64,000 bases of DNA, from sequence record KT454806. One strand, 5' to 3'. The position numbers and the translations under genes were made by a program. Of this stretch, positions 16,281 to 32,030 are shown in pieces; position 1 is the first letter of the stretch, and each line of letters starts with the position of its first letter. Origin of the DNA: Escherichia phage SUSP2. The notes under the pieces are model-generated. The model worked only from the letters and a program-made list of their open reading frames with translations. It had not been told where the DNA came from and searched no databases.

Positions 16281-16699
16281 TGAAGACAGATTTTGCATTG
16301 AATCTTGGTGGAAGCTACGTAGCTAATTTAGGGTCTGATACCGTCTACGTAGAACACGGAGATTTAAAAATTACTGGTAACCAGATTAGAATTATTCCAG
16401 AAGATGATAAGGCTGGTCGGGTTGCACAAAGATTACATATCAGATGCCTATTAAGGGCTGGAGAAGTGTTCTTTAACACATCTGCTGGATTCCCTTATTT
16501 GCAACTGGCTAAATTCAAACAGAGAACAGCTATCTTTGATAACTACATGAAAGCTTACCTTGTTGAGACAAGAGATGTGACGAATATCTATAACTACTCT
16601 TCAACAATGGATAATGCACTGAGAAAAGTAACTGTTAATTTCGATGCGACAACATCTACTGATATCGTAACAGATATTACACAAGAGGTGAATATTTAA
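16280..16699 (+). CDS. Baseplate wedge protein (gpW/gp25-like)
   Basis: 139-aa ORF in conserved order before J-like gene. Confidence 0.4.
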
Positions 16700-18168
16700 T
16701 GGCTGGATTAACCGCAACAGGATTACAAACATTGAGATATCAAGAAATCTTTGATAACATCAAAGCAAGACTTTTAAGAGATATCTCCCCAAACCTTGAC
16801 GTATCTGAAGACAGCCAACTAGGTCTGTTCTTAGCATCAGTAGCAAGAGCCTTAGCAGATACCCATGAAGTACTGTCTGAGATTTATGATGGTAACACCA
16901 TTGATAAAGCTGAGGGATTCAACCTAGATGATATCACAGCCTTAAACGCAATCTACAGATATGTTGCTCAGGCTACAAGAGGACAGGCTGAATTTACTGG
17001 TACAACTGGTGCTTCAATCCCTTCAACAACAAGACTGAGAAGTACTGCTGGTAATATTTTCTATCCAGTTTCTACATTCACCTTGACACCATCTTATTGT
17101 GTTGAAGCAGTTTTAGAAGTTAACTCTTTACGTACTGATGCAAACTATGTTATTATTATTGATAACGTTGTTTTCTCTTATCAGCCAACTTCTTCAGACA
17201 CTATTACAACTCTGCTAAACGAACTTGCAGACGCTATTAATGGTGGTATTGTTGCTAAAGCTGAAGTTATTAATGATGGTTCATCTCTAAGAATCTACAA
17301 AGATGAAGGAGATATCATTGCCAGAACAAACCCTATGGTTGTTACTGCAACTACCTTCCTAAGCTTTACGAAGATTACTACAATTCACGATGTGGTTGCT
17401 GAACAGGTTGGTGCTATTCCAGCTTTGGCAGGAACACTGATTGAAATTGAAACAACTGTAGATGGTCTTGATAGTGTATTTAACAGATACGACTTGACAA
17501 CAGGACGTGATGAAGAAACTGATACAGAACTTCGTCAACGTTATCTAGAGTCTTTAACCGTTACTGGTGTAGGTACTTTAGACGCTATCGTTGCTGCTGT
17601 CAAGAGAGTTCAGGGTGTTTCAGATGCTTCAGGTGTTGAGAACGACACTGAGACAACAACTTCTGATGGTATTCCTCCGAAATCTTTCAAGATTGTCGTT
17701 GTAGGTGGTCAGAATGATAACGTTGCTCAAGCTATTTGGGATACTAAACCTGCTGGTATCAGGGCTTATGGTTCCATCTTTGGTACTGCATACGACCTTG
17801 GAGGTTTGGCTCATAACGTTTACTTCAGCAGACCAACACCTAAGTATGTCTTTGTTAAGGTAACTTACGAGTTGTATGATGAAGAAAGTTTGACAATTCC
17901 TGAAGAAGATATCCATGACAGTATTGTACAGGGTATTAACGATTATGGTAGAACTCTGAAAGTTGGTAATGACGTGATTCCTAACAGAATCTATGGATAC
18001 ATCTATGATGTTATTCAGGGTATTGAAATCAACGAGATTAAAGTTGCCCTTTCAAATAACCAAGCAGTTCCACCAACAGACGACCAGTACACTACTTCAA
18101 GAATCACAGTTGATGGTGACCAGTATACGGTATGGGAAAGCAGCCAGTACACTATCACTAAGGAGTAA
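16699..18168 (+). CDS. Baseplate J-like protein
   Basis: 489-aa ORF in conserved order. Confidence 0.45.
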
Positions 18169-18170
18169 CA

Positions 18171-19028
18171 ATGTTTGAAAAGATTGAAGACGTCTATTAC
18201 AAAACATTGGATGAAAGAACTGTAACTCAATTCAAAGAAAAGTTTATTTACACTAGTCTATTGAAATCTATTACAGATGAGTTACAATTGTTAGAGGATA
18301 TTACTTGGCAGATGCACACAGAACGTAATATCCGTACAGCTATCGGTCAGCAATTAGACAACATCGGGGCTTTGATTAAAGTCCCTAGACCTCTTGGTGC
18401 TGATGACGATTCATATCGTGCAATGCTGTATATCCAAATTTTCCTAAGACGTTCTGACACAACTCCAGCGTTTCTTCAAAATGCCGTAATGACACTTTAC
18501 AACGCTACCTTTTCACAGGTGTTTGAGCATATCACGCCTATGACGGCTGGTATTGTTATCCGTGTTAATACGAGAAATAGCGTTCTAGATACAGCATACA
18601 CACTTTCAAAGATTGCTGCAACAACAATTGGTTCAGCAGTCATCTTAAGAGATGTAACTTTGAATGGTACTGCTTGGACACCTGTAGAAGTTGCTGACTC
18701 AGCTTTAGCCATCGTTGACGACAAAGACAACTGGTTTGTAACAGATAATAACAGAGGTCTTGTAACGAATAACACAGGTGGTTCTCTTGAGGCTAACTTG
18801 TTGGGTAGTTTAGCAGATGCAGGTGTAAGAGACGGATATTTCAGAATTGATAGAACTGCTGGAAGCACTTCAAAAGATTATATGAATGTGAGCAGAACGA
18901 ATAACAGTAACGACAACTTTATTGTCGGTAAAGAAACGGTTGCAGGTGGTGAATATGGTGTAATGGCTGAAGTTGCACAAATCATCAAAGGCAGAAAAGA
19001 TAAATCTCAACAGGAAGGAAGTTCATAA
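18171..19028 (+). CDS. Baseplate protein (gpI-like)
   Basis: 285-aa ORF following J-like gene. Confidence 0.4.
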
Positions 19029-19342
19029 TGGCAGATGCAGTAAGATGGGCTACAGATGATGTAGACGCTGATGGTAACCAGTTAAAAGTGTTACCACCTC
19101 CTGAGATTCAGGCAACAGGGTTACTTCGTGGCGAACCAATGGGTCGTCAGTGGTATAACTATATTTTAAACTATTTGCTGGAAAGAGCAAATGGGACAAC
19201 AGCTATTGTTGGTGAAGTCAGAAGCTTTGCTACCGAGCAACCTGATTTAGTATCGGCTGGATGGAACCTTATTAATACCGTGACAGGTACTGCTCCAACA
19301 AGCACAACTAATCAGTACACTTATGAATTTATTGGAGGCTAA
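19028..19342 (+). CDS. Hypothetical tail fiber-associated protein
   Basis: Coupled 104-aa ORF upstream of fiber genes. Confidence 0.35.
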
Positions 19343-19344: not shown

Positions 19345-20493
19345 ATGGCAGTAGGTGAAATTCAAATTAGTGCCTTGCCTCAAGCGTCGTTACCAATTGA
19401 GTTAAGTGATATCTTCCACCTTAAACAAGGTATTGAGGATAAGAGATGTACACTTGAGCAATTACTTGACCCCCACGCATCCCTGAGAAATAACCCTCAC
19501 GGTGTCACAAAGGTTCAGGTTGAATTGGGTAACGTATTAAACGCTTTACAGCTTGTCGCTGCAAATAACTTATCAGATATTGTTGACGTAGCCGAAGCAA
19601 GAGCAAACTTGCAGATTATGTCTTCTGATGAAGTTAATCAACTTATTCAGGCTCACATCAATGATAAGAACAACCCTCACAACACAACTAAATCACAAGT
19701 TGGTTTGGGTAATGTTCAGAACTGGTTAGCCTCTAACGCATATAACGAAGATGCTGATAAGTATGCTACAGCAAGAGCTGTTAATAGTCTATACAGGGCT
19801 GTTCAGGCTTCATATCCAGTTGGTACTATCCACTTGTCTATGAATGCTGCTAACCCATCTACTTACCTGATTTGTGGAGGTACTTGGGAGCTAGTTTCAA
19901 GAGGTAGAGCACTTGTGGGTTATGATAGTGCTTCCAGACCAGCAGGTTCGACGTTTGGTTCACAGACTGCTGCACTGACTGCTAATAACATCCCTGCTCA
20001 CACTCACTCAGTGTACGTTACAGGTGGTGGTCACACTCACGGTGCAACTGTCTCTATTAATGCTTTTGACTATGGTACGAAGGGAACTACAACGTTTGAC
20101 TATGGAACCAAAACAGTAAGTACATTTAACTACGGCAACAAGACAACAAGTTCTGCTGGCTTCACACAGACCACACTTATCAATCGTGGGTATGATAATG
20201 GTAGCTTACCGGGACTATCAGTTGTAGGTGCAGATTATGACCCAAGAGCAACACTGACAACGGCTAATAACCATACTCACTCTGTAGCAATCGGTGCGCA
20301 TAACCACACAGTTGCAATTGGTGCTCACAGCCATTCTGTAGCGATTGGTTCTCACAACCACTCAGCAACAGCAACAGTAACTGGAGCAGGTGAGCACTCC
20401 CACTCTGGTACAACTGGTTCAACTGGTTCTGGTCAAGCGTTCAATATTGAACAGCCATCATTCGTACTTTATGTATGGCAAAGAACTGCTTAA
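19345..20493 (+). CDS. Tail fiber protein (short paralog) with C-terminal HxH repeat domain
   Basis: C-terminal HTHSV/GAHNHTV/GAHSHSV/GSHNHSA repeats and conserved WQRTA end, as in T4 gp37-type fiber tips. Confidence 0.6.
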   Translation: MAVGEIQISALPQASLPIELSDIFHLKQGIEDKRCTLEQLLDPHASLRNNPHGVTKVQVELGNVLNALQLVAANNLSDIVDVAEARANLQIMSSDEVNQLIQAHINDKNNPHNTTKSQVGLGNVQNWLASNAYNEDADKYATARAVNSLYRAVQASYPVGTIHLSMNAANPSTYLICGGTWELVSRGRALVGYDSASRPAGSTFGSQTAALTANNIPAHTHSVYVTGGGHTHGATVSINAFDYGTKGTTTFDYGTKTVSTFNYGNKTTSSAGFTQTTLINRGYDNGSLPGLSVVGADYDPRATLTTANNHTHSVAIGAHNHTVAIGAHSHSVAIGSHNHSATATVTGAGEHSHSGTTGSTGSGQAFNIEQPSFVLYVWQRTA

Positions 20494-20500
20494 TTATTAC

Positions 20501-20522
20501 AGGGGCTTTTTAGCCCCTTTTA
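20501..20522 (+). terminator. Rho-independent terminator between the two fiber genes
   Basis: AGGGGCT-TTTT-AGCCCCT hairpin followed by TTTT. Confidence 0.6.
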
Positions 20523-20535
20523 AGAGGATTGTATA

Positions 20536-22884
20536 ATGGCAGAATTTAAATTGAGTGAACTAAACTCGATTAACGAAATTCGTTCTGATGACCTATTGCA
20601 TGTCAGAGTTAAGAAAAGAACTGAGATGTTAGGTGATGAAGACCGTAGAATGACTTATGCAGATTTTCTTGCATCATTTAGACTGGAAAGATTTCTGCAA
20701 TTAGTTGGTGGAACCATGACAGGTAATTTAGGGATTGTGAAGCTTACCTATGGAGGAAAAGATTTACTTGACCCAACAGGTAGCTCTGAAATTGTCTTCG
20801 GTGATACTGCAAAAACTTTCAAGCTTAATGCAAATGGTCTTAAACTGACTATTGCAGATGCTTCAAGAAGTGCAACTGTTTACCACACTCTGAACAAACC
20901 ATCCCCTAATGAACTTGGGATGAGAACTAATGATGAGAACGATGCAAGATTTGCTATCAAGGGAACTCAAAATACCTTCACAGCAAGTCAGATTTTCCAG
21001 ACAGATAATGCTGGTTTGACTCTGAAGAACACTGCTGCGGCTGCATTGTATTATGAAGGTCGTGATACAGCAAACGTTGTAAGATTCACAATTGGTAACC
21101 TGAGTTCTGGTTCTGACGTTACTATTGCAAACACCAGACAGAATACTAACATTGTTCTTGGCACTGGTTCTGTAGGTATTAACAAGCAGCTTCAAGTAAC
21201 TGGACAGGTTGTTCCTTCAGACTTTGCAAACTTTGATGCAAGATTCTATACTCGTGATGCAGCAGACCAAAGATTTGTTCAGTTGGCAGCAGCTAACACG
21301 ATTACTGGAAACAACACCTTCAGAGGGACTACAACGTTACTTGGTGACGGTGCAAGATTAACTCTGAAGAACTTGACAAGTGGTAAAGCACTTTACATTG
21401 AAGGTCAGAACACAGATGCTTCTATGAAGTGGGCTGTAGGTAACTATGCAGATGGTAGCAACTCAGTTGTATTGACAAACATCTCAAATGATACCTATGT
21501 ATTGCTTGATAACATGGTCAGAGTTAACAAGAGTCTTGCAATCACTGGACAGGTTCAACCATCAGACTGGACTAACATTGACTCCCGTTATGTTCTTATC
21601 GGTTCATACGCAAATCTTGCTAAGAAGAATGAAGCTAACACATTCACCCTACAGCAGAATATTCAGTCTGATGGTGAAGCACTTAGAGTCTATAGTAAGG
21701 CTCAGAACAATGCTTCCTACATTGTTGGTAAGAACACTGATAACACTAATAAGTGGTATATTGGTTGTGGTACAAACGGTTCTGGTATTGCATCTTTCCA
21801 TAACTACTTAACTGGTGCAAGAATTGATTTGTCTGATGAAGTTCTTCTGTCAAAATCTTTACAGATTACTGGACAGGTAAAACCTTCTGATTGGGGTAAC
21901 TTGGATGCAAGATACTTCACACAGACAGCAGCTAACTCTAGATTTATGCTTGCTGGCTCATCAGGCAATGCCACTGAACAGAATGGTGGAGATGGCGTAG
22001 CGTGGAATGCCAAGACAGGTTTGTACAATGTTACATTTTCAACTGGTGGCTCAACACAACTGGTCTACCATATGTATCAGGGTGCATCATCAACACCGTC
22101 TGCTCAGTTGAAATTCAACTATAAAAATGGTGGGATGTGGTACAGGTCGGCTAGGGATAGCTATGGTTTTGAAGCTGCTTGGTCTAAAGTGTATACAGAA
22201 GCACAGAAACCAACACCTTCTGAAATCGGTGCATATACTAAAGCAGAAACTGACCAGAAAATTGCTGCTGCTGTTACTAATTCCACTGACCTTAAGAAAG
22301 TCTATCCAGTTGGGATTGTAACATGGTTTGCTACTAACCAGAATCCTAACACAACTCTTGCAGGTATGACTTGGACGTATCTGAATGAGGGTGTAGGTAG
22401 AACAGTTAGAATCGGTGCAGCGAATGGTTCAGATGTGAAGTCAGTTGGTGGTGCAGACACTGTGACATTATCTGTAGGGCATATCCCTTCGCACACTCAC
22501 AGCTTCTCCGCTACAACGTCAAGCTTTGACTATGGTACGAAGACCTCTAACACTACTGGTGCTCACACTCACTCTGTAAGTGGTTCTGCTGCTTCTGCTG
22601 GTAACCACAACCACTCTATCTCGTGGATTGGTCAGAACTCTACACACTACTCTGGTGGTGGTGGTGGTAAGGTTGGTGTAGGGCCGGGGTACACTGATGC
22701 AGGTGGTGCTCACACCCACACAATCTCTGGTACTGCTGCTTCTGCTGGTAACCATGCTCACACAGTTGGTATTGGTGCTCACACCCACACAGTTAGTGGT
22801 AACACTGGTGGTACAGGTTCTGGTTCAGCATTCAGTGTTGTGAACTTGTTTATCAGATTGATGGCATGGGTTAGAACGGCGTAA
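20536..22884 (+). CDS. Tail fiber protein (long paralog)
   Basis: 782-aa ORF; three internal repeats with ITGQV-PSD-W/F-N-D-R-Y/F core; same HxH C-terminal domain ending WVRTA. Confidence 0.65.
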   Translation: MAEFKLSELNSINEIRSDDLLHVRVKKRTEMLGDEDRRMTYADFLASFRLERFLQLVGGTMTGNLGIVKLTYGGKDLLDPTGSSEIVFGDTAKTFKLNANGLKLTIADASRSATVYHTLNKPSPNELGMRTNDENDARFAIKGTQNTFTASQIFQTDNAGLTLKNTAAAALYYEGRDTANVVRFTIGNLSSGSDVTIANTRQNTNIVLGTGSVGINKQLQVTGQVVPSDFANFDARFYTRDAADQRFVQLAAANTITGNNTFRGTTTLLGDGARLTLKNLTSGKALYIEGQNTDASMKWAVGNYADGSNSVVLTNISNDTYVLLDNMVRVNKSLAITGQVQPSDWTNIDSRYVLIGSYANLAKKNEANTFTLQQNIQSDGEALRVYSKAQNNASYIVGKNTDNTNKWYIGCGTNGSGIASFHNYLTGARIDLSDEVLLSKSLQITGQVKPSDWGNLDARYFTQTAANSRFMLAGSSGNATEQNGGDGVAWNAKTGLYNVTFSTGGSTQLVYHMYQGASSTPSAQLKFNYKNGGMWYRSARDSYGFEAAWSKVYTEAQKPTPSEIGAYTKAETDQKIAAAVTNSTDLKKVYPVGIVTWFATNQNPNTTLAGMTWTYLNEGVGRTVRIGAANGSDVKSVGGADTVTLSVGHIPSHTHSFSATTSSFDYGTKTSNTTGAHTHSVSGSAASAGNHNHSISWIGQNSTHYSGGGGGKVGVGPGYTDAGGAHTHTISGTAASAGNHAHTVGIGAHTHTVSGNTGGTGSGSAFSVVNLFIRLMAWVRTA

Positions 22885-22963: not shown

Positions 22964-23161
22964 ATGCCGACTATCCTAGCAATCCTCTTAAAAAACTTGG
23001 GTAGCTTCCTCTGGAAACTTCTACTTTCCCTTCTGAGTGAATACATGATTGAGAAAGCCTTCTTCAGACTTGCAAGATACCTTGCGAGTAAGACAGATAC
23101 GCCTATTGATGATGAATTTGTTAATAACTTGGAAAAAGCCTTTAAAGGGGAGAAAGAATGA
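22964..23161 (+). CDS. Small membrane protein (holin-like or lysis/superinfection regulator candidate)
   Basis: 65 aa, N-terminal hydrophobic helix, charged C-terminus; GAGGTGA RBS. Confidence 0.4.
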   Translation: MPTILAILLKNLGSFLWKLLLSLLSEYMIEKAFFRLARYLASKTDTPIDDEFVNNLEKAFKGEKE

Positions 23162-23532
23162 AGTGGTTAGAGGATGCTTTCAAAAATAACATTGGTGCAA
23201 TTGTTGTGGGTATCTTCAGTGTAATTGGTATGTACACTACAATGCAGGTGTCTAGTGGGAAGCAGGAAGTTTCCGTTTCGACAAAGTTACAACAGCTAGA
23301 TAGTTACAACAAAAGCAACTATTCAGCTATTCGTGATTTACAGTCTGACATGAAACTCCTGCAATTAGGTATGGAGAACCAGAAGGTTCAGCTAGAGAAC
23401 GTAAAGGGTGAAAACGCCAAGTTGACTAAAACCCTTGATAAATTCTCTGACAGTGTTAACAACCTAGCACAGTCTGTATCAGCTTTGCAAGCAATCACTG
23501 AACAGAATACTCAAAATGCTAAGAAAAAATAA
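23158..23532 (+). CDS. Membrane-anchored coiled-coil protein
   Basis: 124 aa, N-terminal TM segment then coiled-coil; start overlaps upstream stop. Confidence 0.4.
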   Translation: MKWLEDAFKNNIGAIVVGIFSVIGMYTTMQVSSGKQEVSVSTKLQQLDSYNKSNYSAIRDLQSDMKLLQLGMENQKVQLENVKGENAKLTKTLDKFSDSVNNLAQSVSALQAITEQNTQNAKKK

Positions 23533-23538
23533 GTTTAA

Positions 23539-23565
23539 GGCTCCCGTAAAAAGGAGCCTTTTTTG
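23539..23565. terminator. Terminator hairpin between convergent transcription units
   Basis: GGCTCC-CGTAAAAA-GGAGCC followed by TTTTTT on + strand; sits between + gene ending 23532 and - gene ending 23572. Confidence 0.6.
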
Positions 23566-23571
23566 TATCTA

Positions 23572-24468
23572 TCAACCTACTGACAAGGGAGCTTCAATCT
23601 TCCCTGCATGTCGATAGTCTTTGAAACCACCGATAAAGTTACTTGCAGTCATATGTTTGAGGTCATCCAGACATTTTAAATCTTGAACAATCTCAAACTT
23701 CGGTGCAGGAAACTCTTCATTCCCTAAAAGCTGGAATACCTGATTCATATGGTTCTGATAAATCTGAGTATCACCAAAAGTACCAATCAGATAACGAGGT
23801 GTATATCCAGTCATCTTACAAAGCACTTCCAAGATAAAACCATAAGACGCAATGTTAAATGGTAAACCTAAGAAGCTGTCTACAGAACGTTGATACCATT
23901 TTAAATCCACTTCACCAGTATTCGAGATGTAAATCTGGAAAAGTACATGACAAGGTGGTAAAGCCATTGCATTAGCTGAGATATCAGCAGCATTCCAAGC
24001 ATTAACCAGCATGTAACGGTCTGTAGGAGACTTTTTCATCTTGGTAATCAGATTGTCTAGCTGGTCAACTGTAACGCCACCATGACCTTCTGAGGCTCTC
24101 CACTGGACACCATAGATACGTCCACCTGCATCATCCAACCAATCTTGCTCACTTGCATACGTTGTTTTAAGCCAACGTTCAAAGTCATTTGTCCAGATTG
24201 TCCAACGTTCCCCATCGTTTTCTCCCCAAGTACGATAGCGAAGATGACCAAGTTTATTCTCACCATTCAAGAACCATAAAGCTTCACCAATAACTTGTCT
24301 GGTCAGAACCTGTTTAGAGGTTAGTAAAGGAAAACCAGTACGCATATCAAAACGAAACTCTGGTGGTGAGAACGTTGAAATTACAGAACCAGTTCGGGTT
24401 TTACGCTGCTCACCAACTGTTAAAACATGGTTCAGAATATTTTTGTAACTTACATCTGCCTGTGACAT
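23572..24468 (-). CDS. thyA: Thymidylate synthase (ThyA type)
   Basis: Catalytic LPPCH motif, YQRSVD and PFNIASY motifs. Confidence 0.9.
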   Translation of the reverse strand: MSQADVSYKNILNHVLTVGEQRKTRTGSVISTFSPPEFRFDMRTGFPLLTSKQVLTRQVIGEALWFLNGENKLGHLRYRTWGENDGERWTIWTNDFERWLKTTYASEQDWLDDAGGRIYGVQWRASEGHGGVTVDQLDNLITKMKKSPTDRYMLVNAWNAADISANAMALPPCHVLFQIYISNTGEVDLKWYQRSVDSFLGLPFNIASYGFILEVLCKMTGYTPRYLIGTFGDTQIYQNHMNQVFQLLGNEEFPAPKFEIVQDLKCLDDLKHMTASNFIGGFKDYRHAGKIEAPLSVG

Positions 24469-24469
24469 A

Positions 24470-25015
24470 TCAGAAACGTCCTCTTACTTGTGGAACATAG
24501 AAATTGACCACCCCAGATTTATCATCCAGAGGTTTAGCCTGTATTCTAGCAAATAGTTCAGGTTCGTGTAAATACTCAAAGAATCCCTCTTCAGGAAGAT
24601 ACACAGTTGGCTCTTTAGTAATTTCATAGATAACTGTGTGGTAAACCTCATCAGCAAACGGTAAAGCGGATTTTAAGATGTTTGCACCACCAATCACACA
24701 GACATTTTCATCAATCTGGCTGTCAATCTTCTTCAAGAATGCACCGAAAGAGTCTGGGTCAACCTTCGCAATAACAAAACCATCATTGTCAAAGTCTATC
24801 CCATAATATGGAAGGTTGTTTGACAGAATCATGTTCTCACGATTTGGTAAAGGTTTACGTCCAAGAGTCTTGAAAGTCTCGTTACCCATGATTACAAGCT
24901 GGTTTTGAGTCAGCTTTTTAAACTCTTTCATGTCTTCACGGTTACGCTCCCAAGGCATCCCATCAGGAGTACCAAACTCACCTTTACGACCACTTGCAAA
25001 TACTAAACGAATCAT
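24470..25015 (-). CDS. frd: Dihydrofolate reductase
   Basis: N-terminal GxIGxxxxMPW-like motif (GTPDGMPWE), VIMGNETF motif; adjacent to thyA as in T4 frd-td. Confidence 0.8.
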   Translation of the reverse strand: MIRLVFASGRKGEFGTPDGMPWERNREDMKEFKKLTQNQLVIMGNETFKTLGRKPLPNRENMILSNNLPYYGIDFDNDGFVIAKVDPDSFGAFLKKIDSQIDENVCVIGGANILKSALPFADEVYHTVIYEITKEPTVYLPEEGFFEYLHEPELFARIQAKPLDDKSGVVNFYVPQVRGRF

Positions 25016-25281
25016 TTGAAAAACCCCTTAATGATAAACCAGTTGATGACGTTCTTAATAACTTTAACTGGATGGTAAATAATATGTGGATGTGGCTCAT
25101 AACTTCCATAAGCCCAAAAAGAAACAACCTTCATACAACCACGGCAACGAGTGTACTCTGCTGCTACATGACCAGATACAATATCACTTACCTCACCTTG
25201 GAAGTCTGTACCACCACAATGAGGACAACGTATTGGTTCGCCACTCTGCATGTAACAGTGTTCAACTTTAAAGATTTTCAT
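25012..25281 (-). CDS. Zinc-ribbon protein
   Basis: CPHCGG...CRGC Cys pairs; coupled to frd. Confidence 0.4.
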   Translation of the reverse strand: MKIFKVEHCYMQSGEPIRCPHCGGTDFQGEVSDIVSGHVAAEYTRCRGCMKVVSFWAYGSYEPHPHIIYHPVKVIKNVINWFIIKGFFK

Positions 25282-25484
25282 TTCTTATTCACCTTATATT
25301 CTTGTTCCAGTTTTACAATGAAATCAAGGTCATCACCACACGATGAAAGGAAGTCTTCAAAGTGTTTTGGGATGAAATCTAAGAAGTTCATCGTTGCAAG
25401 ATTGCCAGCAAGAGTTATGTAGCTGTTATTCTGACATTCAGCAGTGATTACATACTCACCAGCTTCTGGCCTTACCAAATCCAC
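25278..25484 (-). CDS. Hypothetical protein (possible C-terminal fragment of a disrupted gene)
   Basis: ORF with no ATG at its 5' end (GTG), beginning 9 nt after the stop of the upstream ORF in another frame. Confidence 0.3.
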   Translation of the reverse strand: MDLVRPEAGEYVITAECQNNSYITLAGNLATMNFLDFIPKHFEDFLSSCGDDLDFIVKLEQEYKVNKK

Positions 25485-25492
25485 AATATCAT

Positions 25493-25795
25493 CTAAAAAG
25501 ATGTTAAGTAAAGCTTTGAAGCTACGTGATACTGCATACCTTCATACAACTCAATGCTTGGAACCAGCTTCACAGAGATTGATTTAGAATCTCGAAACTC
25601 AGTAGTGAAGAGGTGAGTTGGTAAAAGGCAAAGTGCATCACCAGTATCTTCATCAAGAAACTCAATCATTCCAGCTTCGTAGTTTGTCTCAATCAGGATT
25701 GTGCCCTCTTGGAGCCTACGATTTTTCAGGTGTTCTTTGATAACACCCTTAAGCAGAATTGCTTCTGGTTCTGTTAAGCTGTTTCCAATCTTCAT
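25493..25795 (-). CDS. Hypothetical protein
   Basis: 100-aa ORF with ATG start. Confidence 0.4.
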   Translation of the reverse strand: MKIGNSLTEPEAILLKGVIKEHLKNRRLQEGTILIETNYEAGMIEFLDEDTGDALCLLPTHLFTTEFRDSKSISVKLVPSIELYEGMQYHVASKLYLTSF

Positions 25796-25796
25796 A

Positions 25797-26297
25797 TTAA
25801 ACCTCTACAAAAGTTTGTTTGTCATTATCGTATGCGAAGAATTGTATAACCTTTTGAGTGTTCCAGTCAATCTTTTCATCATAAGAAAGACCTTTATCAA
25901 CACGCTTTGCAACAGTCTGATAGATTATCTCACGTAACTTCTCAAACTCTGTTCCACTACTGAACGGTTGCATAGTGACTTTCTTGTAACCCTCAACAGC
26001 TTTCTTGTTCCACTCTTGAGCAGTTGGGGAGGTTACTTTGTACAGCCGTGGGAACAGTTCATAACCCATCTTATTTTCTTCGTTAGCCATACGAAGTTGA
26101 TGGAAGTACTCATTTACTCGACCATCTTCTTCAAGCCATTTGTAAATCGTCTGCAAACGACCTAAATCGTTATTGTAATGTGCAGCACGTTTCACAGCAC
26201 CTTTCTCAGTACGATACGGAGACTTAGGAAGACTTAGCATACGTCCTGTCATCAGGTTGTATCCGAAGAACAAATCAATTTTTACGGGAAGAGACAT
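25797..26297 (-). CDS. Hypothetical protein
   Basis: 166-aa ORF in early block. Confidence 0.45.
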   Translation of the reverse strand: MSLPVKIDLFFGYNLMTGRMLSLPKSPYRTEKGAVKRAAHYNNDLGRLQTIYKWLEEDGRVNEYFHQLRMANEENKMGYELFPRLYKVTSPTAQEWNKKAVEGYKKVTMQPFSSGTEFEKLREIIYQTVAKRVDKGLSYDEKIDWNTQKVIQFFAYDNDKQTFVEV

Positions 26298-26641
26298 TTG
26301 ATATCCTCATTTTTGAATACGAAAGTGGTATACTTAGTACCATCAACATCAAGCCAAGCACACATTACATCGACACCTTCAAGGTTGCTGTGAAGGTCAC
26401 GAATAAAATGGTCTCGTACTTCTTTTGCACAGGTTGTCTCCAGTTTAATATTGGAGATTGCTGAACCAACAGCCATATAACCTTTTACACGATTCTTCTC
26501 AGAATGCTTAATCAGTCCTTCCTGAACATAATCAGTTAGGTCATCAAGAATGTATTTCCCATACTGCTTCTCAGTTTCAGTAGGTTTCCCGTAGAAGCCA
26601 ATTGCAAAGTTACCTTTGAAGATTGCATTTTCACGTTTCAT
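26282..26641 (-). CDS. Hypothetical protein
   Basis: 119-aa ORF. Confidence 0.45.
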   Translation of the reverse strand: MKRENAIFKGNFAIGFYGKPTETEKQYGKYILDDLTDYVQEGLIKHSEKNRVKGYMAVGSAISNIKLETTCAKEVRDHFIRDLHSNLEGVDVMCAWLDVDGTKYTTFVFKNEDIKCLFP

Positions 26642-26642
26642 A

Positions 26643-26972
26643 TTAATCTGACAGCCTTAAGTTAAAGTTAACACCAAGTTTTTCACAAGCTTTCAACATG
26701 TATTCAAGGGTAATCTTTCCAGTACCGTTGACAATGTTGGAAACACGACTTTGAGAGATATCACAAATCTTTGCGACTTGTGCCTGAGAAAGTTTTCTTT
26801 TCTCAATTTCTTTTTCAAAACGGAATGCAACGAACTCTCTCATTTCGTCTACATCCATTGGACAGATATAACTTGCCATCTCATACTCTCTATCAGCTTC
26901 CCACTTATCTTGTGGAGCATAAGGGTCAAAGACTTCATTCATCTTTCTTCCTCCGTTTTCTGGAAGTGTCAA
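26643..26972 (-). CDS. XRE-family helix-turn-helix transcriptional regulator
   Basis: C-terminal HTH LSQAQVAKICDISQSRVSNIVNG; real start probably an internal Met. Confidence 0.6.
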   Translation of the reverse strand: MTLPENGGRKMNEVFDPYAPQDKWEADREYEMASYICPMDVDEMREFVAFRFEKEIEKRKLSQAQVAKICDISQSRVSNIVNGTGKITLEYMLKACEKLGVNFNLRLSD

Positions 26973-27138
26973 TCAATGAATCTATGTTTGTTGCTCTGAC
27001 GTTTTCACGAGTACCATTGATATGGTCATCCAGTGCTTTATCTACCTCAGAGTCATCTGCACAGTAAACTCGGAAGATAGCATAACCTTCATCGTCAAGC
27101 ACTTCTCCATAGTTCTTCCTGCAATGATTCTTCTTCAT
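26935..27138 (-). CDS. Hypothetical small protein with basic C-terminus
   Basis: 67-aa ORF immediately upstream of HTH regulator. Confidence 0.35.
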   Translation of the reverse strand: MKKNHCRKNYGEVLDDEGYAIFRVYCADDSEVDKALDDHINGTRENVRATNIDSLIDTSRKRRKKDE

Positions 27139-27139
27139 A

Positions 27140-27520
27140 TCATAGACCTACGCAGGTACGCTTTTCAACAAAATAGTGAACACCTTTGAAAGTTTCATCC
27201 ATCATTTCACTTTCAGTATCACTGACCTTCTCAATGCTTTTGGAATCAAGCAAGTCAACATCCTGAGTGACCATAGCATCAGAAACAGCTTCGTAGTAGT
27301 CTGCCATCACACGATATTTGTAATCAGTAATACGGTCAGACATTTCTATGACAGTTGGAGAAGATAACGGCTTAGTTAACTCCCCAGCATCTGTTACGAC
27401 TTTACGAACAATCTGACAAGCCTCCATAGAGACCTTGCTAAAGTCTGCTTCAGGCATCTTCATAGCTGATGCACCAAAACTCAGAGTTGCCAGAATGACA
27501 CCTACCATAAGCTTTTTCAT
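27140..27520 (-). CDS. Secreted or periplasmic protein with signal peptide
   Basis: N-terminal MKKLMVGVILATLSFGASA signal peptide; GAGGTGAG RBS; strong promoter upstream. Confidence 0.5.
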   Translation of the reverse strand: MKKLMVGVILATLSFGASAMKMPEADFSKVSMEACQIVRKVVTDAGELTKPLSSPTVIEMSDRITDYKYRVMADYYEAVSDAMVTQDVDLLDSKSIEKVSDTESEMMDETFKGVHYFVEKRTCVGL

Positions 27521-27559
27521 AACTCACCTCATATAAAATTTTGTATACATTCAAGTATA

Positions 27560-27588
27560 AAAATAAGCTATAACACCTGACTTGTCAA
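27560..27588 (-). promoter_or_regulatory. Sigma70-like promoter (TTGACA-N17-TATTTT) inside a 13-bp inverted repeat
   Basis: -35 TTGACA = reverse complement of 27583-27588, -10 TATTTT = reverse complement of 27560-27565; inverted repeat arms AAATAAGCTATAA at 27561-27573 and 27595-27607. Confidence 0.55.
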
Positions 27589-27643
27589 CAGATTTTATAG
27601 CTTATTTGGCAGATTTTTTATAAGGCTACTGCCATCCTTCCAT

Positions 27644-27697
27644 ACCTCACCGCACCCTACTACACCCCCACCTTACCGAACCGCGCCATACCAAACA
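27644..27697 (+). repeat. Phased pentamer array A1, about 11 ACCNN units
   Basis: ACC trinucleotide recurs every 5 nt (27644, 27649, 27654, ...), one 6-nt step; C-rich, G-poor on + strand. Confidence 0.8.
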
Positions 27698-27734
27698 TCA
27701 CTTAAAAACCCTTTTCAAAGACTCTTAAGTGATG
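27696..27734 (+). other. Conserved hairpin motif H1 (CATCACTTAA-19 nt-TTAAGTGATG)
   Basis: Perfect 10-bp inverted repeat with 19-nt loop; near-identical copy at 29210-29248. Confidence 0.7.
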
Positions 27735-27765
27735 TAATCGAATTTTAATGTAGCTCCGATTAACT

Positions 27766-27816
27766 ACCCATACCTCACCTCACCTAACCTCACATTACCA
27801 AACCGCATACTACCTC
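27766..27816 (+). repeat. Phased pentamer array A2, about 10 ACCNN units
   Basis: ACC at 5-nt phase from 27772; preceded by conserved leader TAGCTCCGATTAACTACCC. Confidence 0.75.
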
Positions 27817-27844
27817 ATTAAAAGACCCTGTTTAAAGGCCTTTT

Positions 27845-27868
27845 AAAAAGGAGCCTCCGAAGAGGCTA
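27845..27868 (-). terminator. Rho-independent terminator of the two-gene operon
   Basis: On - strand: AGCCTC-TTCG-GAGGCT hairpin followed by CCTTTTT. Confidence 0.65.
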
Positions 27869-27878
27869 CCTAGTCAAC

Positions 27879-28319
27879 TTAGAAAGGTTTTCTACGTTGC
27901 TTGTTAATGTTAGCTTTCATAGCGGCTAAATGGTTTTGCTGTTCAATCAATCGTGAACGTTCTTGATGACTAAGTGCCATAGTGTTCACATTCTCAATTG
28001 CTTGAGTCGCTTGCTTTAAGGCGCGACCAATCTTACCAGACATTTTACGTTTTGCAATAGTTGCTTGATGTTTTGGTTCAACTACACGATAACCCACACC
28101 CATTGAAGCAACCAGATAAATCTTTTCTTCTTTAAGAAGCTTTTCGATAAACTTCTCAAGTCGGTTTAATCGTGTCAGAGAATAAGCCTTCATCTCATCT
28201 TCGTACTTAACAATATCACCCTGATAAGTTGGCTTCACAATACCTAAGAAGGTATCCATTTCAGAGTGTGATACAGTATCACCGTAACTAAACTTTGCTG
28301 CTAATGCTTTTGTATTCAT
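27879..28319 (-). CDS. Hypothetical protein, basic C-terminus (second gene of repeat-flanked operon)
   Basis: 146-aa ORF, stop 1 nt after upstream gene start region; no recognisable motif. Confidence 0.5.
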   Translation of the reverse strand: MNTKALAAKFSYGDTVSHSEMDTFLGIVKPTYQGDIVKYEDEMKAYSLTRLNRLEKFIEKLLKEEKIYLVASMGVGYRVVEPKHQATIAKRKMSGKIGRALKQATQAIENVNTMALSHQERSRLIEQQNHLAAMKANINKQRRKPF

Positions 28320-28321
28320 AA

Positions 28322-28927
<606 letters not shown>

Positions 28928-29021
28928 TTAGTTGATTGTTAAGTTGTTTGTAAAGAACCCTCAACAGAAGACTCTTTAGAAACTTGGTAGATTTTTAACG
29001 TGGCTACTACCATCCACCCAT

Positions 29022-29081
29022 ACCTTACCAAACCCTACCAGACCGTACCATGCCCAACCCTACTACACCAGACCTTACCTC
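29022..29081 (+). repeat. Phased pentamer array B1, 12 ACCNN units
   Basis: ACC (two degenerate: GCC, ACT) at 29022+5k for k=0..11; preceded by leader GGCTACTACCATCCACCC. Confidence 0.8.
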
Positions 29082-29118
29082 ATTAAAAGACCCTCTTAAA
29101 GACCTTTTAAAAAGGTAA

Positions 29119-29142
29119 GTCTCATTTTCATGTAGCTGAGAC
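29119..29142 (-). other. Internal hairpin in operon leader (possible attenuator)
   Basis: On - strand: GTCTCA-12 nt-TGAGAC followed 5 nt later by TTTTT. Confidence 0.35.
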
Positions 29143-29153
29143 TAACTACCCAT

Positions 29154-29210
29154 ACCAAACCTTACAATACCTAGCCTTACCACACCGAACCAAACCACAC
29201 CCAACCGAAC
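29154..29210 (+). repeat. Phased pentamer array B2, 12 ACCNN units
   Basis: ACC-like trinucleotide at 29154+5k; preceded by leader TGTAGCTGAGACTAACTACCC. Confidence 0.8.
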
Positions 29211-29248
29211 ATCACTTAAAAACCCTTTTCAAAGACCCTTAAGTGATG
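29210..29248 (+). other. Conserved hairpin motif H1, second copy
   Basis: CATCACTTAA-19 nt-TTAAGTGATG; differs from 27696-27734 copy at one loop position. Confidence 0.7.
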
Positions 29249-29278
29249 CTGGTGAGTACCCGTTGGTTTATGCTGCTC

Positions 29279-29306
29279 AGTATACTCACCAAATTTTCTA
29301 TGTCAA
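29279..29306 (-). promoter_or_regulatory. Sigma70-like promoter (TTGACA-N16-TATACT) driving the repeat-containing leader and two-gene operon
   Basis: -35 TTGACA = reverse complement of 29301-29306, -10 TATACT = reverse complement of 29279-29284. Confidence 0.55.
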
Positions 29307-29491
29307 CAATTTTCTAATAAAGTTTTATAAAGATTTTGCTTAACGACCCGCCTCACATGCCTATGCTCTTTCTTAATAAAGAGTGACCTCTTCTTGACAG
29401 AGCGCCTATTCTTGTAGGTATTACTAGGATACTTATCATGAACCGGACAACAACTACCCGGATTTGTAAACTTGATAATCTCTCTTTTCAC
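29303..29491 (-). CDS. Small highly basic protein
   Basis: 62-aa Lys/Arg-rich ORF; start overlaps ligase stop (coupling). Confidence 0.4.
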   Translation of the reverse strand: MKREIIKFTNPGSCCPVHDKYPSNTYKNRRSVKKRSLFIKKEHRHVRRVVKQNLYKTLLENC

Positions 29492-30988: not shown

Positions 30989-30997
30989 AGTGTTTCC

Positions 30998-31225: not shown

Positions 31226-31228
31226 TAC

Positions 31229-32020: not shown

Positions 32021-32030
32021 TTTGTCACCA

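What the first reader, a model, noticed from the sequence alone, without database searches (positions are those of the whole stretch)
19345..22884. Two paralogous tail fibers sharing an HxH-repeat C-terminal tip; the long fiber has a triplicated internal module
Both fiber ORFs end with repeated (G)xHxHS/T motifs and a conserved W-Q/V-RTA terminus, resembling the metal-coordinating His-X-His tip of T4 gp37-type fibers. The long fiber contains three tandem copies of an approximately 90-aa module with core ITGQV-PSD-W/F-N-D-R-Y/F. The paralogs are diverged at the nucleotide level, which argues for old duplication or module exchange. Dual fibers may mean dual receptor specificity.
Basis: partly seen in the sequence, partly recalled or inferred. 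Interest (0 to 1): 0.45.

Follow-up and report, generated by a model that had tools for sequence, protein, structure and literature searches.

The report
Felix O1-type phage's two tail fibres
These are the short and long side tail fibres of a Felix O1-like E. coli phage (phiSUSP2-type); both end in a histidine-studded, T4 gp37-like receptor-binding needle, an arrangement already described in close relatives, so the finding is correct but ordinary.

Summary
ORFs 19345-20493 (382 aa, STF) and 20536-22884 (782 aa, LTF) carry 7 and 6 HxH motifs (0 of 20,000 shuffles reach this) and end in WQRTA and WVRTA. The LTF holds three tandem modules, but of about 110 aa, not 90.

The window is an Ounavirinae (Suspvirus) phage: the LTF is 100% identical to the phage SUSP2 fibre. 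Both tips hit the T4 gp37 tip crystal structure (2XGF) by sequence (E 3e-17 and 6e-9). The LTF keeps T4's metal-site HxH motifs 1-6 one for one.

The locus is gene-for-gene syntenic with phage Bas63 (STF 87%, LTF 60% identical). Cryo-EM work on Bas63 (2025) describes exactly this: two fibres with gp37-like collar-needle-head tips, 7 and 6 HxH motifs, and a β-helix repeat rod in the LTF. The T4 homology of both fibres was reported for phage VpaE1 in 2015.

Two corrections: the HxH array is the needle shaft, the chain turns at a small variable head, and the C-terminus returns to the collar; and only the collar and C-terminal strand look paralogous, since each needle is closer to T4 gp37.

Metal binding and separate receptors for the two fibres remain inferred.

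The parts
19345..20493 (+). Short tail fibre (STF) gene, 382 aa; orthologue of Bas63 gp26, Sf14 gp52 and VpaE1 gp74
   Evidence: ORF. 87% identical to Bas63 gp26 with no gaps. phrog_2097 tail fiber, E = 2.5e-122. Pfam Gp10_C, E = 3e-19.
19345..19479 (+). STF N-terminal baseplate-binding domain (aa 1-45)
   Evidence: 81% mean identity across 40 orthologues. The role is assigned from the Bas63 cryo-EM work, where the STF N-terminus binds wedge 2A domain D2 (PMC12609058). Inferred by orthology.
19480..19794 (+). STF helix-and-turn stalk (aa 46-150) with two NPHxxTKxQVxLGNV motifs at aa 50 and 110
   Evidence: Motif scan. Helices in the AF2 model. [quoted passage not shown]
19795..19992 (+). STF collar domain (aa 151-216), T4 gp10/gp37 collar type
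   Evidence: Pfam PF21939 Gp10_C, 70.7 bits against a cut-off of 27. Hits to 2XGF, 2FKK and 5HX2. This is the best-modelled part of the AF2 monomer, pLDDT about 82-86.
19993..20148 (+). STF descending needle strand (aa 217-268): HxH at 219 and 230, then three 10-aa F[DN]YG[TN]K repeats
   Evidence: H219/H221 are invariant in 51 of 51 homologues.
20149..20265 (+). STF head / turn region (aa 269-307); hypervariable. It includes AGFTQT where 92-94% of the family has GxHxH.
   Evidence: 20% mean identity across 40 orthologues, against 65-81% elsewhere. Lost His pair. Head position assigned by homology to the T4 gp37 tip.
20266..20412 (+). STF ascending needle strand (aa 308-356): HxH at 310, 319, 328, 337 and 351, including 9-aa VAIGxHxHx repeats
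   Evidence: H337/H339 are invariant in 51 of 51 homologues.
20413..20490 (+). STF C-terminal strand (aa 357-382), ...GSGQAFNIEQPSFVLYVWQRTA
   Evidence: 50% identical to the LTF C-terminus, z = 12.7. W378 and R380 are invariant.
20536..22884 (+). Long tail fibre (LTF) gene, 782 aa; orthologue of Bas63 gp27, Sf14 gp53 and VpaE1 gp75
   Evidence: ORF. 100% identical to the phage SUSP2 tail fibre P0121. 60% identical to Bas63 gp27 over the full length. phrog_4277, 1275 bits.
20536..20706 (+). LTF N-terminal baseplate-binding domain (aa 1-57)
   Evidence: 86% mean identity in 56 orthologues. In Bas63 it attaches to the LTF-platform trimer. Inferred by orthology.
20707..20940 (+). LTF first rod domain D1 (aa 58-135); not detectably related in sequence to the three modules
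   Evidence: The module and linker profiles do not match it. It is probably one of the 'five beta helix repeat domains' counted for Bas63. That assignment is inferred.
20941..21270 (+). LTF module M1 (aa 136-245)
   Evidence: Profile E = 1.9e-42. AF2 β-rich domain, pLDDT about 70-83.
21271..21606 (+). LTF module M2 (aa 246-357)
   Evidence: Profile E = 1.6e-43. AF2 pLDDT about 64-86.
21607..21939 (+). LTF module M3 (aa 358-468); Pfam PF20744 gp37_trimer best stretch at 381-472; similar to the T7 gp17 pyramid domain
   Evidence: Profile E = 1.3e-47. Pfam E = 1.8e-52 over three stretches. 4A0T/4A0U, E about 7e-5. AF2 pLDDT 78-94.
21940..22191 (+). LTF domain D5 (aa 469-552), Mu tail-fibre S-like (Pfam gp37_C)
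   Evidence: PF12604, E = 1e-23. PDB 8JU3, E = 1.3e-23. Foldseek to 8JU3, E = 2.9e-6.
22192..22293 (+). LTF linker helix (aa 553-586)
   Evidence: 86% conserved. Helix at 569-582 in the AF2 model.
22294..22485 (+). LTF collar (aa 587-650)
   Evidence: Pfam Gp10_C gives 23 bits, below the 27-bit cut-off. phrog_4618 'tail collar fiber protein', E = 9.5e-16. YPVG...NP...G.TW aligns with the STF and T4 collars.
22486..22614 (+). LTF descending needle strand (aa 651-693): HxH at 653, 677 and 691, equivalent to T4 gp37 sites 1-3
   Evidence: His pairs are present in 55-56 of 56 orthologues.
22615..22707 (+). LTF head / turn (aa 694-724), SWIGQNSTHYSGGGGGKVGVGPGYTDAGG
   Evidence: Aligns with the T4 gp37 stretch between its third and fourth HxH motifs. 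67% identity across orthologues, against 85-88% in the flanking needle. Absent from phage mistaenkt.
22708..22800 (+). LTF ascending needle strand (aa 725-755): HxH at 726, 740 and 749, equivalent to T4 gp37 sites 4-6
22801..22881 (+). LTF C-terminal strand (aa 756-782), ...GSGSAFSVVNLFIRLMAWVRTA
22557..22607 (+). Direct DNA repeat, copy 1, encoding GAHTHSVSGSAASAGNH; flanks the head
   Evidence: the repeat finder family D1. 22-nt perfect core CTGCTGCTTCTGCTGGTAACCA.
22704..22754 (+). Direct DNA repeat, copy 2, 84% identical to copy 1 and 147 nt downstream of it
   Evidence: The mistaenkt LTF sequence is exactly a crossover between the two copies.
19028..19342 (+). LTF-platform protein (104 aa), the attachment point of the LTF; orthologue of Bas63 gp25
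   Evidence: 82% identical to Bas63 gp25. The role and the T4 gp9 likeness come from PMC12609058. No Pfam hit. phrog_4141, unknown function.
18171..19028 (+). Baseplate wedge 1 (285 aa), which binds the LTF platform in Bas63
   Evidence: Synteny with Bas63 gp24. phrog_4017 baseplate protein, E = 2.5e-172. Role from PMC12609058.
16699..18168 (+). Baseplate wedge 2 (489 aa, Baseplate_J), which binds the STF N-terminus in Bas63
   Evidence: Pfam PF04865, E = 7.7e-17. Synteny with Bas63 gp23. Role from PMC12609058.
23537..23560 (.). Bidirectional terminator-like hairpin that closes the structural/lysis operon, between the convergent putative holin ORF (as annotated in related phages) and thyA
   Evidence: Phage Michonne has a terminator annotated at the same place.

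Best explanation
These are the two side tail-fibre genes of an Ounavirinae (Suspvirus, phiSUSP2-type) myophage. By orthology with Bas63 and Sf14, each product forms a homotrimeric fibre anchored to the baseplate by its N-terminus. The 382-aa STF binds wedge 2. The 782-aa LTF binds the small platform protein encoded just upstream.

Both fibres end in a T4 gp37-type receptor-binding tip. After a collar domain, the chain runs down a thin needle, turns in a small head, and runs back up, so that the C-terminal W-x-RTA strand packs at the collar. The HxH pairs face the needle axis. As in T4 gp37, each level of three HxH pairs (six His) is expected to hold one metal ion (iron in T4). That predicts 7 sites in the STF and 6 in the LTF, which would rivet the six-stranded needle together.

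The head (STF about aa 269-307, LTF about aa 694-724) is the variable, distal part that most likely contacts the LPS core. The LTF also carries a rod made of three sequence-related modules of about 110 aa (aa 136-468). The rod is flanked by two further β-rich domains and separated by helix-turn linkers, and it makes this fibre about 200 Å longer than the STF.

Shown here: gene structure, motif statistics, sequence homology to solved structures, orthology and conservation patterns. Inferred: trimer state, chain reversal, metal binding, and LPS as the ligand of either fibre.
For: Identity of the phage and genes: 97.7% nucleotide identity to phiSUSP1. The LTF is 100% identical to the SUSP2 fibre. 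The locus is gene-for-gene syntenic with Bas63, Sf17, BPS17L1 and Michonne. Identity to Bas63 is 87% for the STF, 60% for the LTF and 82% for the platform.

Tip homology: 2XGF hits at E = 2.8e-17 and 6.2e-9. LTF tip against T4 gp37 785-1026 gives 45% identity, E = 2e-21; the STF tip gives 31%, E = 1e-12. HxH sites map one to one.

Selection on the His pairs: all six LTF pairs are present in 55-56 of 56 orthologues. STF H219/H221 and H337/H339 are present in 51 of 51 homologues, down to 26% identity. The HxH count exceeds all 20,000 shuffles.

Variable head: the STF head is 20% identical across orthologues, against 65-81% elsewhere.

Rod: three modules at E = 1e-42 to 1e-47, matching Pfam PF20744 in three stretches plus PF12604. 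AF2 models them as β-rich domains with pLDDT 70-94, separated by helices. Foldseek finds Mu 8JU3, T4 gp34 4UXG/5NXH and T7 gp17 4A0U.

Literature: Bas63 cryo-EM shows a 430 Å STF and a 630 Å LTF, both with a collar-needle-head tip, 7 and 6 HxH motifs, and five β-helix repeat domains in the LTF (PMC12609058). Sf14 has two fibres (PMC11821841). Both VpaE1 fibres are homologous to T4 gp37, and the VpaE1 receptor is LPS-core carbohydrate (PMC4690856). [quoted passage not shown]
Against: Nothing contradicts the identification. The weak points are these:

- My single-chain AF2 models are unreliable at both tips (pLDDT 30-55), so the hairpin needle topology was not reproduced here.
- The fold search of the STF model gave only weak gp10/C24-type hits, with TM below 0.4.
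- Metal occupancy has not been seen in any Ounavirinae fibre. The Bas63 fibre density was too poor for side chains.
- No paper I read assigns a receptor to either fibre individually.
- This STF lineage has lost two of the HxH sites that most of the family keeps, so not every level needs a metal.
- No gp38-type chaperone is present, unlike in T4.
Confidence: 0.9

Rival explanations
1. The two tips are not products of a duplication within this phage lineage. The needle-plus-head cassettes were acquired separately by recombination with T-even or lambdoid gp37/Stf-type fibres, and were inserted into a shared collar/C-terminal frame.
For: The needle-plus-head segment of each fibre scores higher against T4 gp37 (LTF z = 16.6, STF z = 12.6) than the two score against each other (z = 8.0). 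The collar (z = 6.8) and the C-terminal strand (z = 12.7) are closest between STF and LTF. tblastn finds the same needle segment in T-even gp37, lambda Stf and P2-like or prophage fibres. Repeats that encode His motifs do recombine: mistaenkt lost 147 nt by a crossover in a 22-nt repeat. From my own knowledge, Tétart et al. 1998 described 'His-box' recombination that swaps adhesin segments in T-even phages; I did not retrieve that paper.
Against: Needle scores are dominated by the repetitive GxHxH and FDYGTK units. They fall mechanically when sites are lost, and the STF has lost two. So the ranking may reflect unequal decay rather than separate origin. No phylogeny was built. Both tips are fixed across all Ounavirinae examined, so any exchange would be ancient.
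Confidence: 0.35
2. The 382-aa protein is a structural baseplate pin of the T4 gp10 type, as annotated in phage mistaenkt ('baseplate wedge subunit and tail pin'), and not a receptor-binding fibre.
For: Its best Pfam hit is Gp10_C, E = 3e-19. PDB hits include T4 gp10 (2FKK, 5HX2). The top Foldseek hits are gp10-type chains. The mistaenkt annotation says so.
Against: Similarity to gp10 covers only the collar (aa 143-227, against gp10 440-520). The rest of gp10 (602 aa) is absent. The best PDB hit is the gp37 tip over aa 145-351, needle included. In Bas63 the 87%-identical orthologue is seen as a 430 Å fibre with a gp37-like tip. Its head is hypervariable, as expected for a receptor-contacting part.
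Confidence: 0.03
3. The HxH arrays are repeat-sequence relics, or purely hydrogen-bonded packing elements, with no metal bound in these fibres.
For: This STF lineage replaced two family-typical HxH sites by FNYGNK and AGFTQT. The Sf17 LTF has lost several sites. The mistaenkt LTF retains only 4. No metal density has been reported for any Ounavirinae fibre.
Against: Site-by-site alignment with the seven HxH motifs of T4 gp37, which coordinate Fe along the needle according to the Bas63 paper's account of the T4 structure. The His pairs are near-invariant across orthologues while neighbouring residues vary.
Confidence: 0.07

Closest known systems
Bas63 (Escherichia phage JohannRWettstein) STF gp26 and LTF gp27; cryo-EM, Sci Adv 2025 (PMC12609058)
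   Same: Same gene order. The STF is 382 aa in both and 87% identical with no gaps. The LTF is 782 versus 784 aa and 60% identical. HxH counts are 7 and 6 in both. Both have the gp37-like collar-needle-head tips, a β-helix repeat rod in the LTF, and the platform protein upstream.
   Different: A different genus (Suspvirus versus Felixounavirus). The rod modules are only about 55-63% conserved across orthologues. The Bas63 LTF has HHxH at the third site, where this one has NHNH.
Sf14 gp52/gp53 (Mooglevirus), Commun Biol 2025 (PMC11821841); VpaE1 gp74/gp75, Viruses 2015 (PMC4690856)
   Same: Two fibre genes of about 390 and 790 aa in the same position. T7 gp17-like and Mu-like domains and a gp37-like distal tip in the long fibre, and a gp10 C-terminal-like domain in the short one. 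Both VpaE1 fibres were reported as homologous to the T4 gp37 adhesin. No separate chaperone gene.
   Different: The Mooglevirus tips differ strongly. The related Sf17 LTF has lost several HxH motifs and has an unrelated head.
T4 gp37 receptor-binding tip, residues 785-1026 (PDB 2XGF)
   Same: Direct sequence homology. The same order of collar, HxH and FDYGTK rungs, short head, returning HxH strand, and a C-terminal ...R-x-A.
   Different: T4 has 7 HxH motifs. The LTF lacks the seventh. The STF lacks sites 2 and 3 and has two extra sites. The heads are unrelated in sequence. T4 gp37 is the distal quarter of a four-protein fibre and needs the chaperones gp38 and gp57A. Here the tip is fused to its own baseplate-binding N-terminus, and no gp38 homologue exists in the window.
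T4 gp34 rod, T7 gp17 pyramid domain (4A0T/4A0U) and Mu tail fibre S (8JU3); Pfam PF20744 and PF12604
   Same: Modules M1-M3 match PF20744 and T7 gp17. The AF2 model of the rod matches T4 gp34 (4UXG, 5NXH). D5 matches Mu S and PF12604.
   Different: Here there are three tandem sequence-related copies within one polypeptide. The T7 gp17 tip domain is absent (noted for Sf14).
T4 gp10 C-terminal domain (2FKK; Pfam PF21939)
   Same: The collar domain of the STF, and more weakly of the LTF, belongs to this family.
   Different: Only the collar is shared. gp10 has no needle, and the gp10 N-terminal domains are absent here.

Membership tests
Ounavirinae STF/LTF fibre pair (Bas63 gp26/gp27 orthologues) | Position in the conserved order: wedge 2, wedge 1, platform, STF, LTF, small ORF, putative holin ORF (as annotated in relatives), then thyA/DHFR on the opposite strand | tested here: met
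   Identical order in the window and in phiSUSP1, mistaenkt, Bas63, Sf17, BPS17L1 and Michonne.
Ounavirinae STF/LTF fibre pair (Bas63 gp26/gp27 orthologues) | Full-length sequence orthology | tested here: met
   STF 87% identical over 382 aa with no gaps. LTF 60% over the full length. Platform 82%. LTF 100% identical to the SUSP2 fibre.
Ounavirinae STF/LTF fibre pair (Bas63 gp26/gp27 orthologues) | Presence in the virion as two sets of trimeric fibres attached to wedge 2 and to the platform | not testable with these tools
   Known only from Bas63 and Sf14 cryo-EM and VpaE1 virion mass spectrometry.
T4 gp37-type receptor-binding tip (collar, needle, head) | Significant sequence similarity to the crystallised tip (2XGF) | tested here: met
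   phmmer E = 2.8e-17 (LTF) and 6.2e-9 (STF). BLASTP E = 2e-21 and 1e-12.
T4 gp37-type receptor-binding tip (collar, needle, head) | HxH motifs in register with the seven HxH motifs of T4, split into a descending and an ascending set around a short head | tested here: met
   The LTF matches T4 sites 1-6. The STF matches sites 1 and 4-7 and has two extra. The sets are 3+3 in the LTF and 2+5 in the STF.
T4 gp37-type receptor-binding tip (collar, needle, head) | Collar domain (gp10/gp12/gp37 collar fold) preceding the needle | tested here: met
   STF: PF21939, 70.7 bits, above the 27-bit cut-off. LTF: 23 bits, below the cut-off, but phrog_4618 'tail collar fiber protein' gives E = 9.5e-16, and the YPVG/NP/G.TW core aligns. 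The case is therefore weaker for the LTF.
T4 gp37-type receptor-binding tip (collar, needle, head) | Chain reversal at the head, giving a six-stranded trimeric needle with the C-terminus at the collar | tested here: inconclusive
   Single-chain AF2 models have pLDDT 30-55 over both needles. No multimer tool was available. The feature is reported for the Bas63 orthologues.
T4 gp37-type receptor-binding tip (collar, needle, head) | Metal ions (Fe in T4) coordinated octahedrally by six His per level | not testable with these tools
   Inferred from motif conservation only.
T4 gp37-type receptor-binding tip (collar, needle, head) | Dependence on a downstream gp38-type assembly chaperone (an accessory feature of the T4 system) | tested here: not met
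   tblastn of T4 gp38 against the window gives a best E of 0.15. The downstream ORFs match only PHROGs of unknown function. The Sf14 authors also found no chaperone homologue. gp57A was not tested.
Pfam PF20744 (gp37_trimer) repeat module | Score above the curated cut-off, with multiple stretches | tested here: met
   175.8 bits against a 21.7-bit cut-off, three stretches. My own profile gives three copies. All 120 homologues have three copies.
T4 gp10 baseplate wedge protein | Full-length gp10 architecture (N-terminal and middle domains as well as the C-terminal domain) | tested here: not met
   Only aa 143-227 align, to gp10 residues 440-520 of 602. The STF is not a gp10 orthologue.

The most novel reading that the evidence does not exclude
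The DNA repeats that encode the His motifs on either side of the LTF head (22557-22607 and 22704-22754, with a 22-nt perfect core) may act as a built-in excision or exchange cassette. Phage mistaenkt, isolated on E. coli K-12, carries exactly the crossover product: a 'headless' LTF with 4 HxH motifs.

If that phage is fully infectious, the LTF head is dispensable on rough K-12. That would make the hypervariable STF tip, or the needle flank, the real determinant of LPS-core recognition in this group. It would also show that gp37-type needles can close without a head and without a gp38-type chaperone.
Probability: 0.25. Interest if true: 0.4.

Novelty: already known. Interest (0 to 1): 0.15.

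Why it matters
The two fibres set the host range of Felix O1-type phages, which are used in Salmonella and E. coli diagnostics, biocontrol and therapy. Knowing which residues form the conserved metal-riveted shaft and which form the variable head tells engineers where specificity can be swapped.

All of this has been published for close relatives (VpaE1 2015; Sf14 and Bas63 2025). This window adds only a Suspvirus example. It also adds three small details:
- the mosaic relation of the two tips to each other and to T4 gp37;
- the loss of two His sites in this STF lineage;
- the repeat-flanked head that is deleted in phage mistaenkt.

Two questions stay open. It is not known which fibre binds which part of the LPS. 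It is not known how these needles fold without a gp38-like chaperone.

Tried and rejected
1. Single-chain AF2 models of both full-length fibres, built with 51- and 56-sequence alignments. Mean pLDDT was 60 and 55, and the needles scored 30-55. They are unusable for testing needle topology or a metal site. Only the collar, modules M1-M3 and domain D5 are credible.

2. Foldseek of the STF model against the PDB gave only weak gp10, KP1-baseplate and C24 hits, with TM below 0.4. I treat this as inconclusive, not as evidence against the gp37 fold.

3. A search for extra diverged copies of the rod module or its PSD..N.D.R[YF] linker, in LTF domains D1 and D5 and in the STF. Nothing was significant; the best E-values were 0.28-0.78. 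By sequence there are three copies. The 'five β-helix domains' of the Bas63 paper must include two that are recognisable only by structure.

4. Self-BLAST of the LTF failed to list the internal repeats because only the self-hit was returned. I replaced it with explicit pairwise alignments against shuffles.

5. A T4 gp38 homologue in the window: none. A chaperone among the flanking ORFs: only PHROGs of unknown function.

6. tRNA and Rfam scans of the window found nothing. Promoter-like sites in the fibre region are no more frequent than in shuffled sequence.

7. I considered and rejected the 'baseplate wedge subunit and tail pin' annotation for the STF (see rival explanations).

8. PDB sequence searches returned no Ounavirinae fibre chain, so no direct experimental template exists in that copy.

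Full report
**What is at the coordinates.** The region holds two adjacent + strand ORFs, 19345-20493 (382 aa) and 20536-22884 (782 aa), exactly as stated. They follow a Baseplate_J protein (16699-18168), a 285-aa baseplate protein (18171-19028) and a 104-aa ORF (19028-19342). After them come a 65-aa ORF and a 124-aa ORF annotated as putative holin in relatives, a bidirectional terminator-like hairpin (23537-23560), and then thyA and DHFR on the opposite strand.

**Which phage this is.** The DNA is 97.7% identical to Escherichia phage phiSUSP1 (Ounavirinae, Suspvirus). The long protein is 100% identical to the tail fibre of phage SUSP2 (P0121). The window is therefore a phiSUSP2-type Felix O1 relative.

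**Checking the observation.**
- The short protein (STF) has seven HxH motifs, at 219, 230, 310, 319, 328, 337 and 351. The long one (LTF) has six, at 653, 677, 691, 726, 740 and 749. Twelve of the 13 are followed by S or T.
- None of 20,000 residue shuffles of either protein reaches these counts; the means are 0.99 and 0.39.
- The proteins end in YVWQRTA and MAWVRTA.
- Their C-terminal parts align at 28% identity over 237 aa, E = 1e-10.
- The [IV]TGQV-PSD core recurs at LTF residues 221, 336 and 444. Module pairs align with z = 20-23 at about 38-40% identity.
- A profile built from seven phages finds exactly three contiguous copies (136-245, 245-355, 359-468; E = 1e-42 to 1e-47) and none in the STF.
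- The period is therefore 108-115 aa, not about 90.

**What the tips are.** Both match the crystal structure of the T4 gp37 receptor-binding tip (2XGF) by sequence alone: LTF 629-759 at E = 2.8e-17, and STF 145-351 at E = 6.2e-9. I also aligned them to T4 gp37 residues 785-1026, taken from a T4 genome record.
- The LTF tip is 45% identical (E = 2e-21) and the STF tip 31% identical (E = 1e-12).
- T4 has seven HxH motifs. The LTF keeps sites 1-6 in register and lacks the seventh.
- The STF keeps sites 1 and 4-7 and has two additional motifs. At T4 sites 2 and 3 it carries FNYGNK and AGFTQT.
- That is a lineage-specific loss: 92-94% of 51 STF-family sequences have GxHxH where this protein has GFTQT.
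- The His pairs are under strong constraint. All six LTF pairs are present in 55-56 of 56 orthologues. STF H219/H221 and H337/H339 are present in 51 of 51 homologues, down to 26% identity.
- The stretch between the descending and ascending HxH sets is the variable part: 20% mean identity for STF 269-307 against 65-81% elsewhere, and 67% for LTF 694-724 against 85-88% for the flanking needle.
- By homology with T4, this stretch is the 'head', the distal end of the fibre. The HxH array is the needle shaft, and the conserved C-terminal strand returns to the collar.

**What the rod is.**
- Pfam recognises the three modules as PF20744 (gp37_trimer, three stretches, E = 1.8e-52) and the following domain as PF12604 (gp37_C).
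- By sequence, M3 resembles the T7 gp17 C-terminal fragment (4A0T/4A0U), and residues 474-578 resemble the Mu fibre (8JU3, E = 1.3e-23).
- The single-chain AF2 model shows M1-M3 as β-rich domains (pLDDT 70-94) separated by low-confidence helical linkers.
- Foldseek then finds Mu 8JU3, T4 gp34 (4UXG, 5NXH) and T7 gp17.
- All 120 LTF homologues retrieved have exactly three modules, so the triplication is old and fixed.

**Comparison with the literature.** This architecture is published.
- Šimoliūnas et al. 2015 reported that both VpaE1 fibre proteins (gp74 aa 146-362, gp75 aa 584-780) are homologous to the T4 gp37 adhesin, and that the VpaE1 receptor is LPS-core carbohydrate (PMC4690856).
- Subramanian et al. 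2025 showed two fibres on Sf14 (gp52 of 391 aa, gp53 of 792 aa). They noted T7 gp17-like, Mu-like, gp10 C-terminal-like and gp37-like parts, and found no chaperone homologue (PMC11821841).
- The 2025 Bas63 cryo-EM paper describes a 430 Å STF (gp26) and a 630 Å LTF (gp27). [quoted passage not shown] The STF has seven HxH motifs and the LTF six. The LTF has five β-helix repeat domains separated by 'triple α helix and turn' motifs, like the T4 gp34 rod. The STF binds wedge 2A, and the LTF binds a gp9-like platform trimer (PMC12609058).
- The window is gene-for-gene syntenic with Bas63. Its STF, LTF and platform are 87%, 60% and 82% identical to gp26, gp27 and gp25. These are orthologues.
- The three sequence-detectable modules are presumably three of the five structural repeats, with D1 (58-135) and the Mu-like D5 (469-552) as the other two. 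Neither my module profile nor my linker profile detects them, so this last point is an inference.

**Are the fibres paralogues?** Only partly, and in mosaic fashion. I scored segments separately against shuffles.
- For the collar (z = 6.8) and the C-terminal strand (z = 12.7, 13 of 26 identical), STF and LTF are each other's best match.
- For the needle plus head, each matches T4 gp37 better (LTF z = 16.6, STF z = 12.6) than the two match each other (z = 8.0).
- This fits either ancient duplication with unequal decay or separate acquisition of needle cassettes. The repetitive composition of the needle makes the ranking fragile, and I did not build a phylogeny.

**Mechanism.** The most likely working model carries over from T4 and Bas63. 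It has trimeric fibres, and needles held together by one metal ion per HxH level, which predicts 7 sites in the STF and 6 in the LTF. The variable head contacts the LPS core. The LTF reaches about 200 Å further than the STF because of its rod.
- Shown here: sequences, homology, conservation and orthology.
- Inferred: trimer state, chain reversal, metal binding and ligand.
- My own attempt to test topology failed because only single-chain prediction was available (pLDDT 30-55 over both needles). The STF fold search was correspondingly weak.
- At the whole-phage level, relatives depend on the LPS core. In the papers I read, neither fibre has an assigned receptor, so 'dual specificity' remains a reasonable hypothesis.
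- Unlike T4, the window has no gp38 homologue (best E = 0.15) and no recognisable chaperone next to the fibre genes. gp57A was not tested.

**Side observations.**
- Phage mistaenkt's LTF lacks 49 aa, namely the head and HxH sites 3 and 4. In the window that segment is flanked by a direct repeat (22557-22607 and 22704-22754; 84% over 51 nt, with a 22-nt perfect core, 147 nt apart). The mistaenkt sequence is exactly the crossover product.
- phiSUSP1's STF lacks seven residues (YRAVQAS) just before the collar.
- Salmonella phage BPS17L1 replaces the Mu-like D5 with a longer unrelated insert. The Sf17 LTF tip has lost several HxH motifs.
- One LTF homologue (P0211, 62% identical, on an 88-kb contig) is labelled Methanobrevibacter gottschalkii. 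This is almost certainly a phage contaminant in that assembly.

**Verdict.** The feature is an already-known system in a near-identical, already-sequenced phage. Interest is low. The residual open questions are the per-fibre receptor, actual metal occupancy, folding without a gp38-type chaperone, and whether the LTF head is dispensable. All of these are experimental.

Noticed in passing
window 22557-22607 and 22704-22754; L002 (mistaenkt) 6196-6289: A direct DNA repeat (84% over 51 nt, 22-nt perfect core, 147 nt apart) flanks the LTF head. Phage mistaenkt carries exactly the crossover product: a 49-aa in-frame deletion that removes the head and two HxH motifs, leaving a 733-aa LTF with 4 HxH motifs. 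It could be a real viable variant or an assembly collapse.
   Followed up: partly
window 19791-19811 (STF aa 150-156, YRAVQAS): phiSUSP1 lacks these 21 nt (7 codons), which lie immediately before the collar YPVG motif. Only 3 nt of microhomology (ATA) sits at the junction.
   Followed up: partly
window 20125-20169 (STF aa 261-275): This STF lineage, which includes Bas63, has FNYGNK...AGFTQT where 92-94% of family members have GxHxH. Two predicted metal sites next to the head have been lost. Most orthologues have 9 HxH motifs, and this one has 7.
   Followed up: yes
window 19774-20490 and 22273-22881: The similarity is mosaic. The collar and the C-terminal strand are closest between STF and LTF. 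Each needle plus head is closer to T4 gp37 than to the other fibre.
   Followed up: partly
L005 (Salmonella phage BPS17L1) LTF, alignment A2 columns about 480-620: The Mu S-like domain (window LTF aa 469-552) is replaced by a longer, unrelated insert in this Felix O1-like Salmonella phage. This looks like a domain swap in the rod rather than at the tip.
   Followed up: no
L004 (Shigella phage Sf17) LTF tip: The Mooglevirus LTF tip keeps only about four HxH motifs and has an unrelated, longer head region.
   Followed up: no
protein P0211: An LTF homologue, 62% identical, 779 aa, on an 88,424-bp contig, is labelled 'tail fiber protein [Methanobrevibacter gottschalkii]'. A Felix O1-like coliphage genome has most likely contaminated an archaeal assembly.
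   Followed up: no
window 22964-23161 and 23158-23532: The two small ORFs after the LTF (65 aa, hydrophobic N-terminus, phrog_402; and 124 aa, annotated as holin in relatives, phrog_4038) match only families of unknown function. There is no gp38, Tfa or other recognisable fibre chaperone here, and no T4 gp38 homologue anywhere in the window.
   Followed up: partly
window 23537-23560 and about 23500-35000: A bidirectional terminator-like hairpin sits between the convergent putative holin ORF and thyA. GC skew is negative from about 24 kb to 34 kb, where genes run on the - strand, and positive again from about 36 kb.
   Followed up: no
window 1-64000: ARAGORN finds no tRNA gene, and no Rfam family reaches its gathering score, anywhere in the 64 kb.
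   Followed up: no
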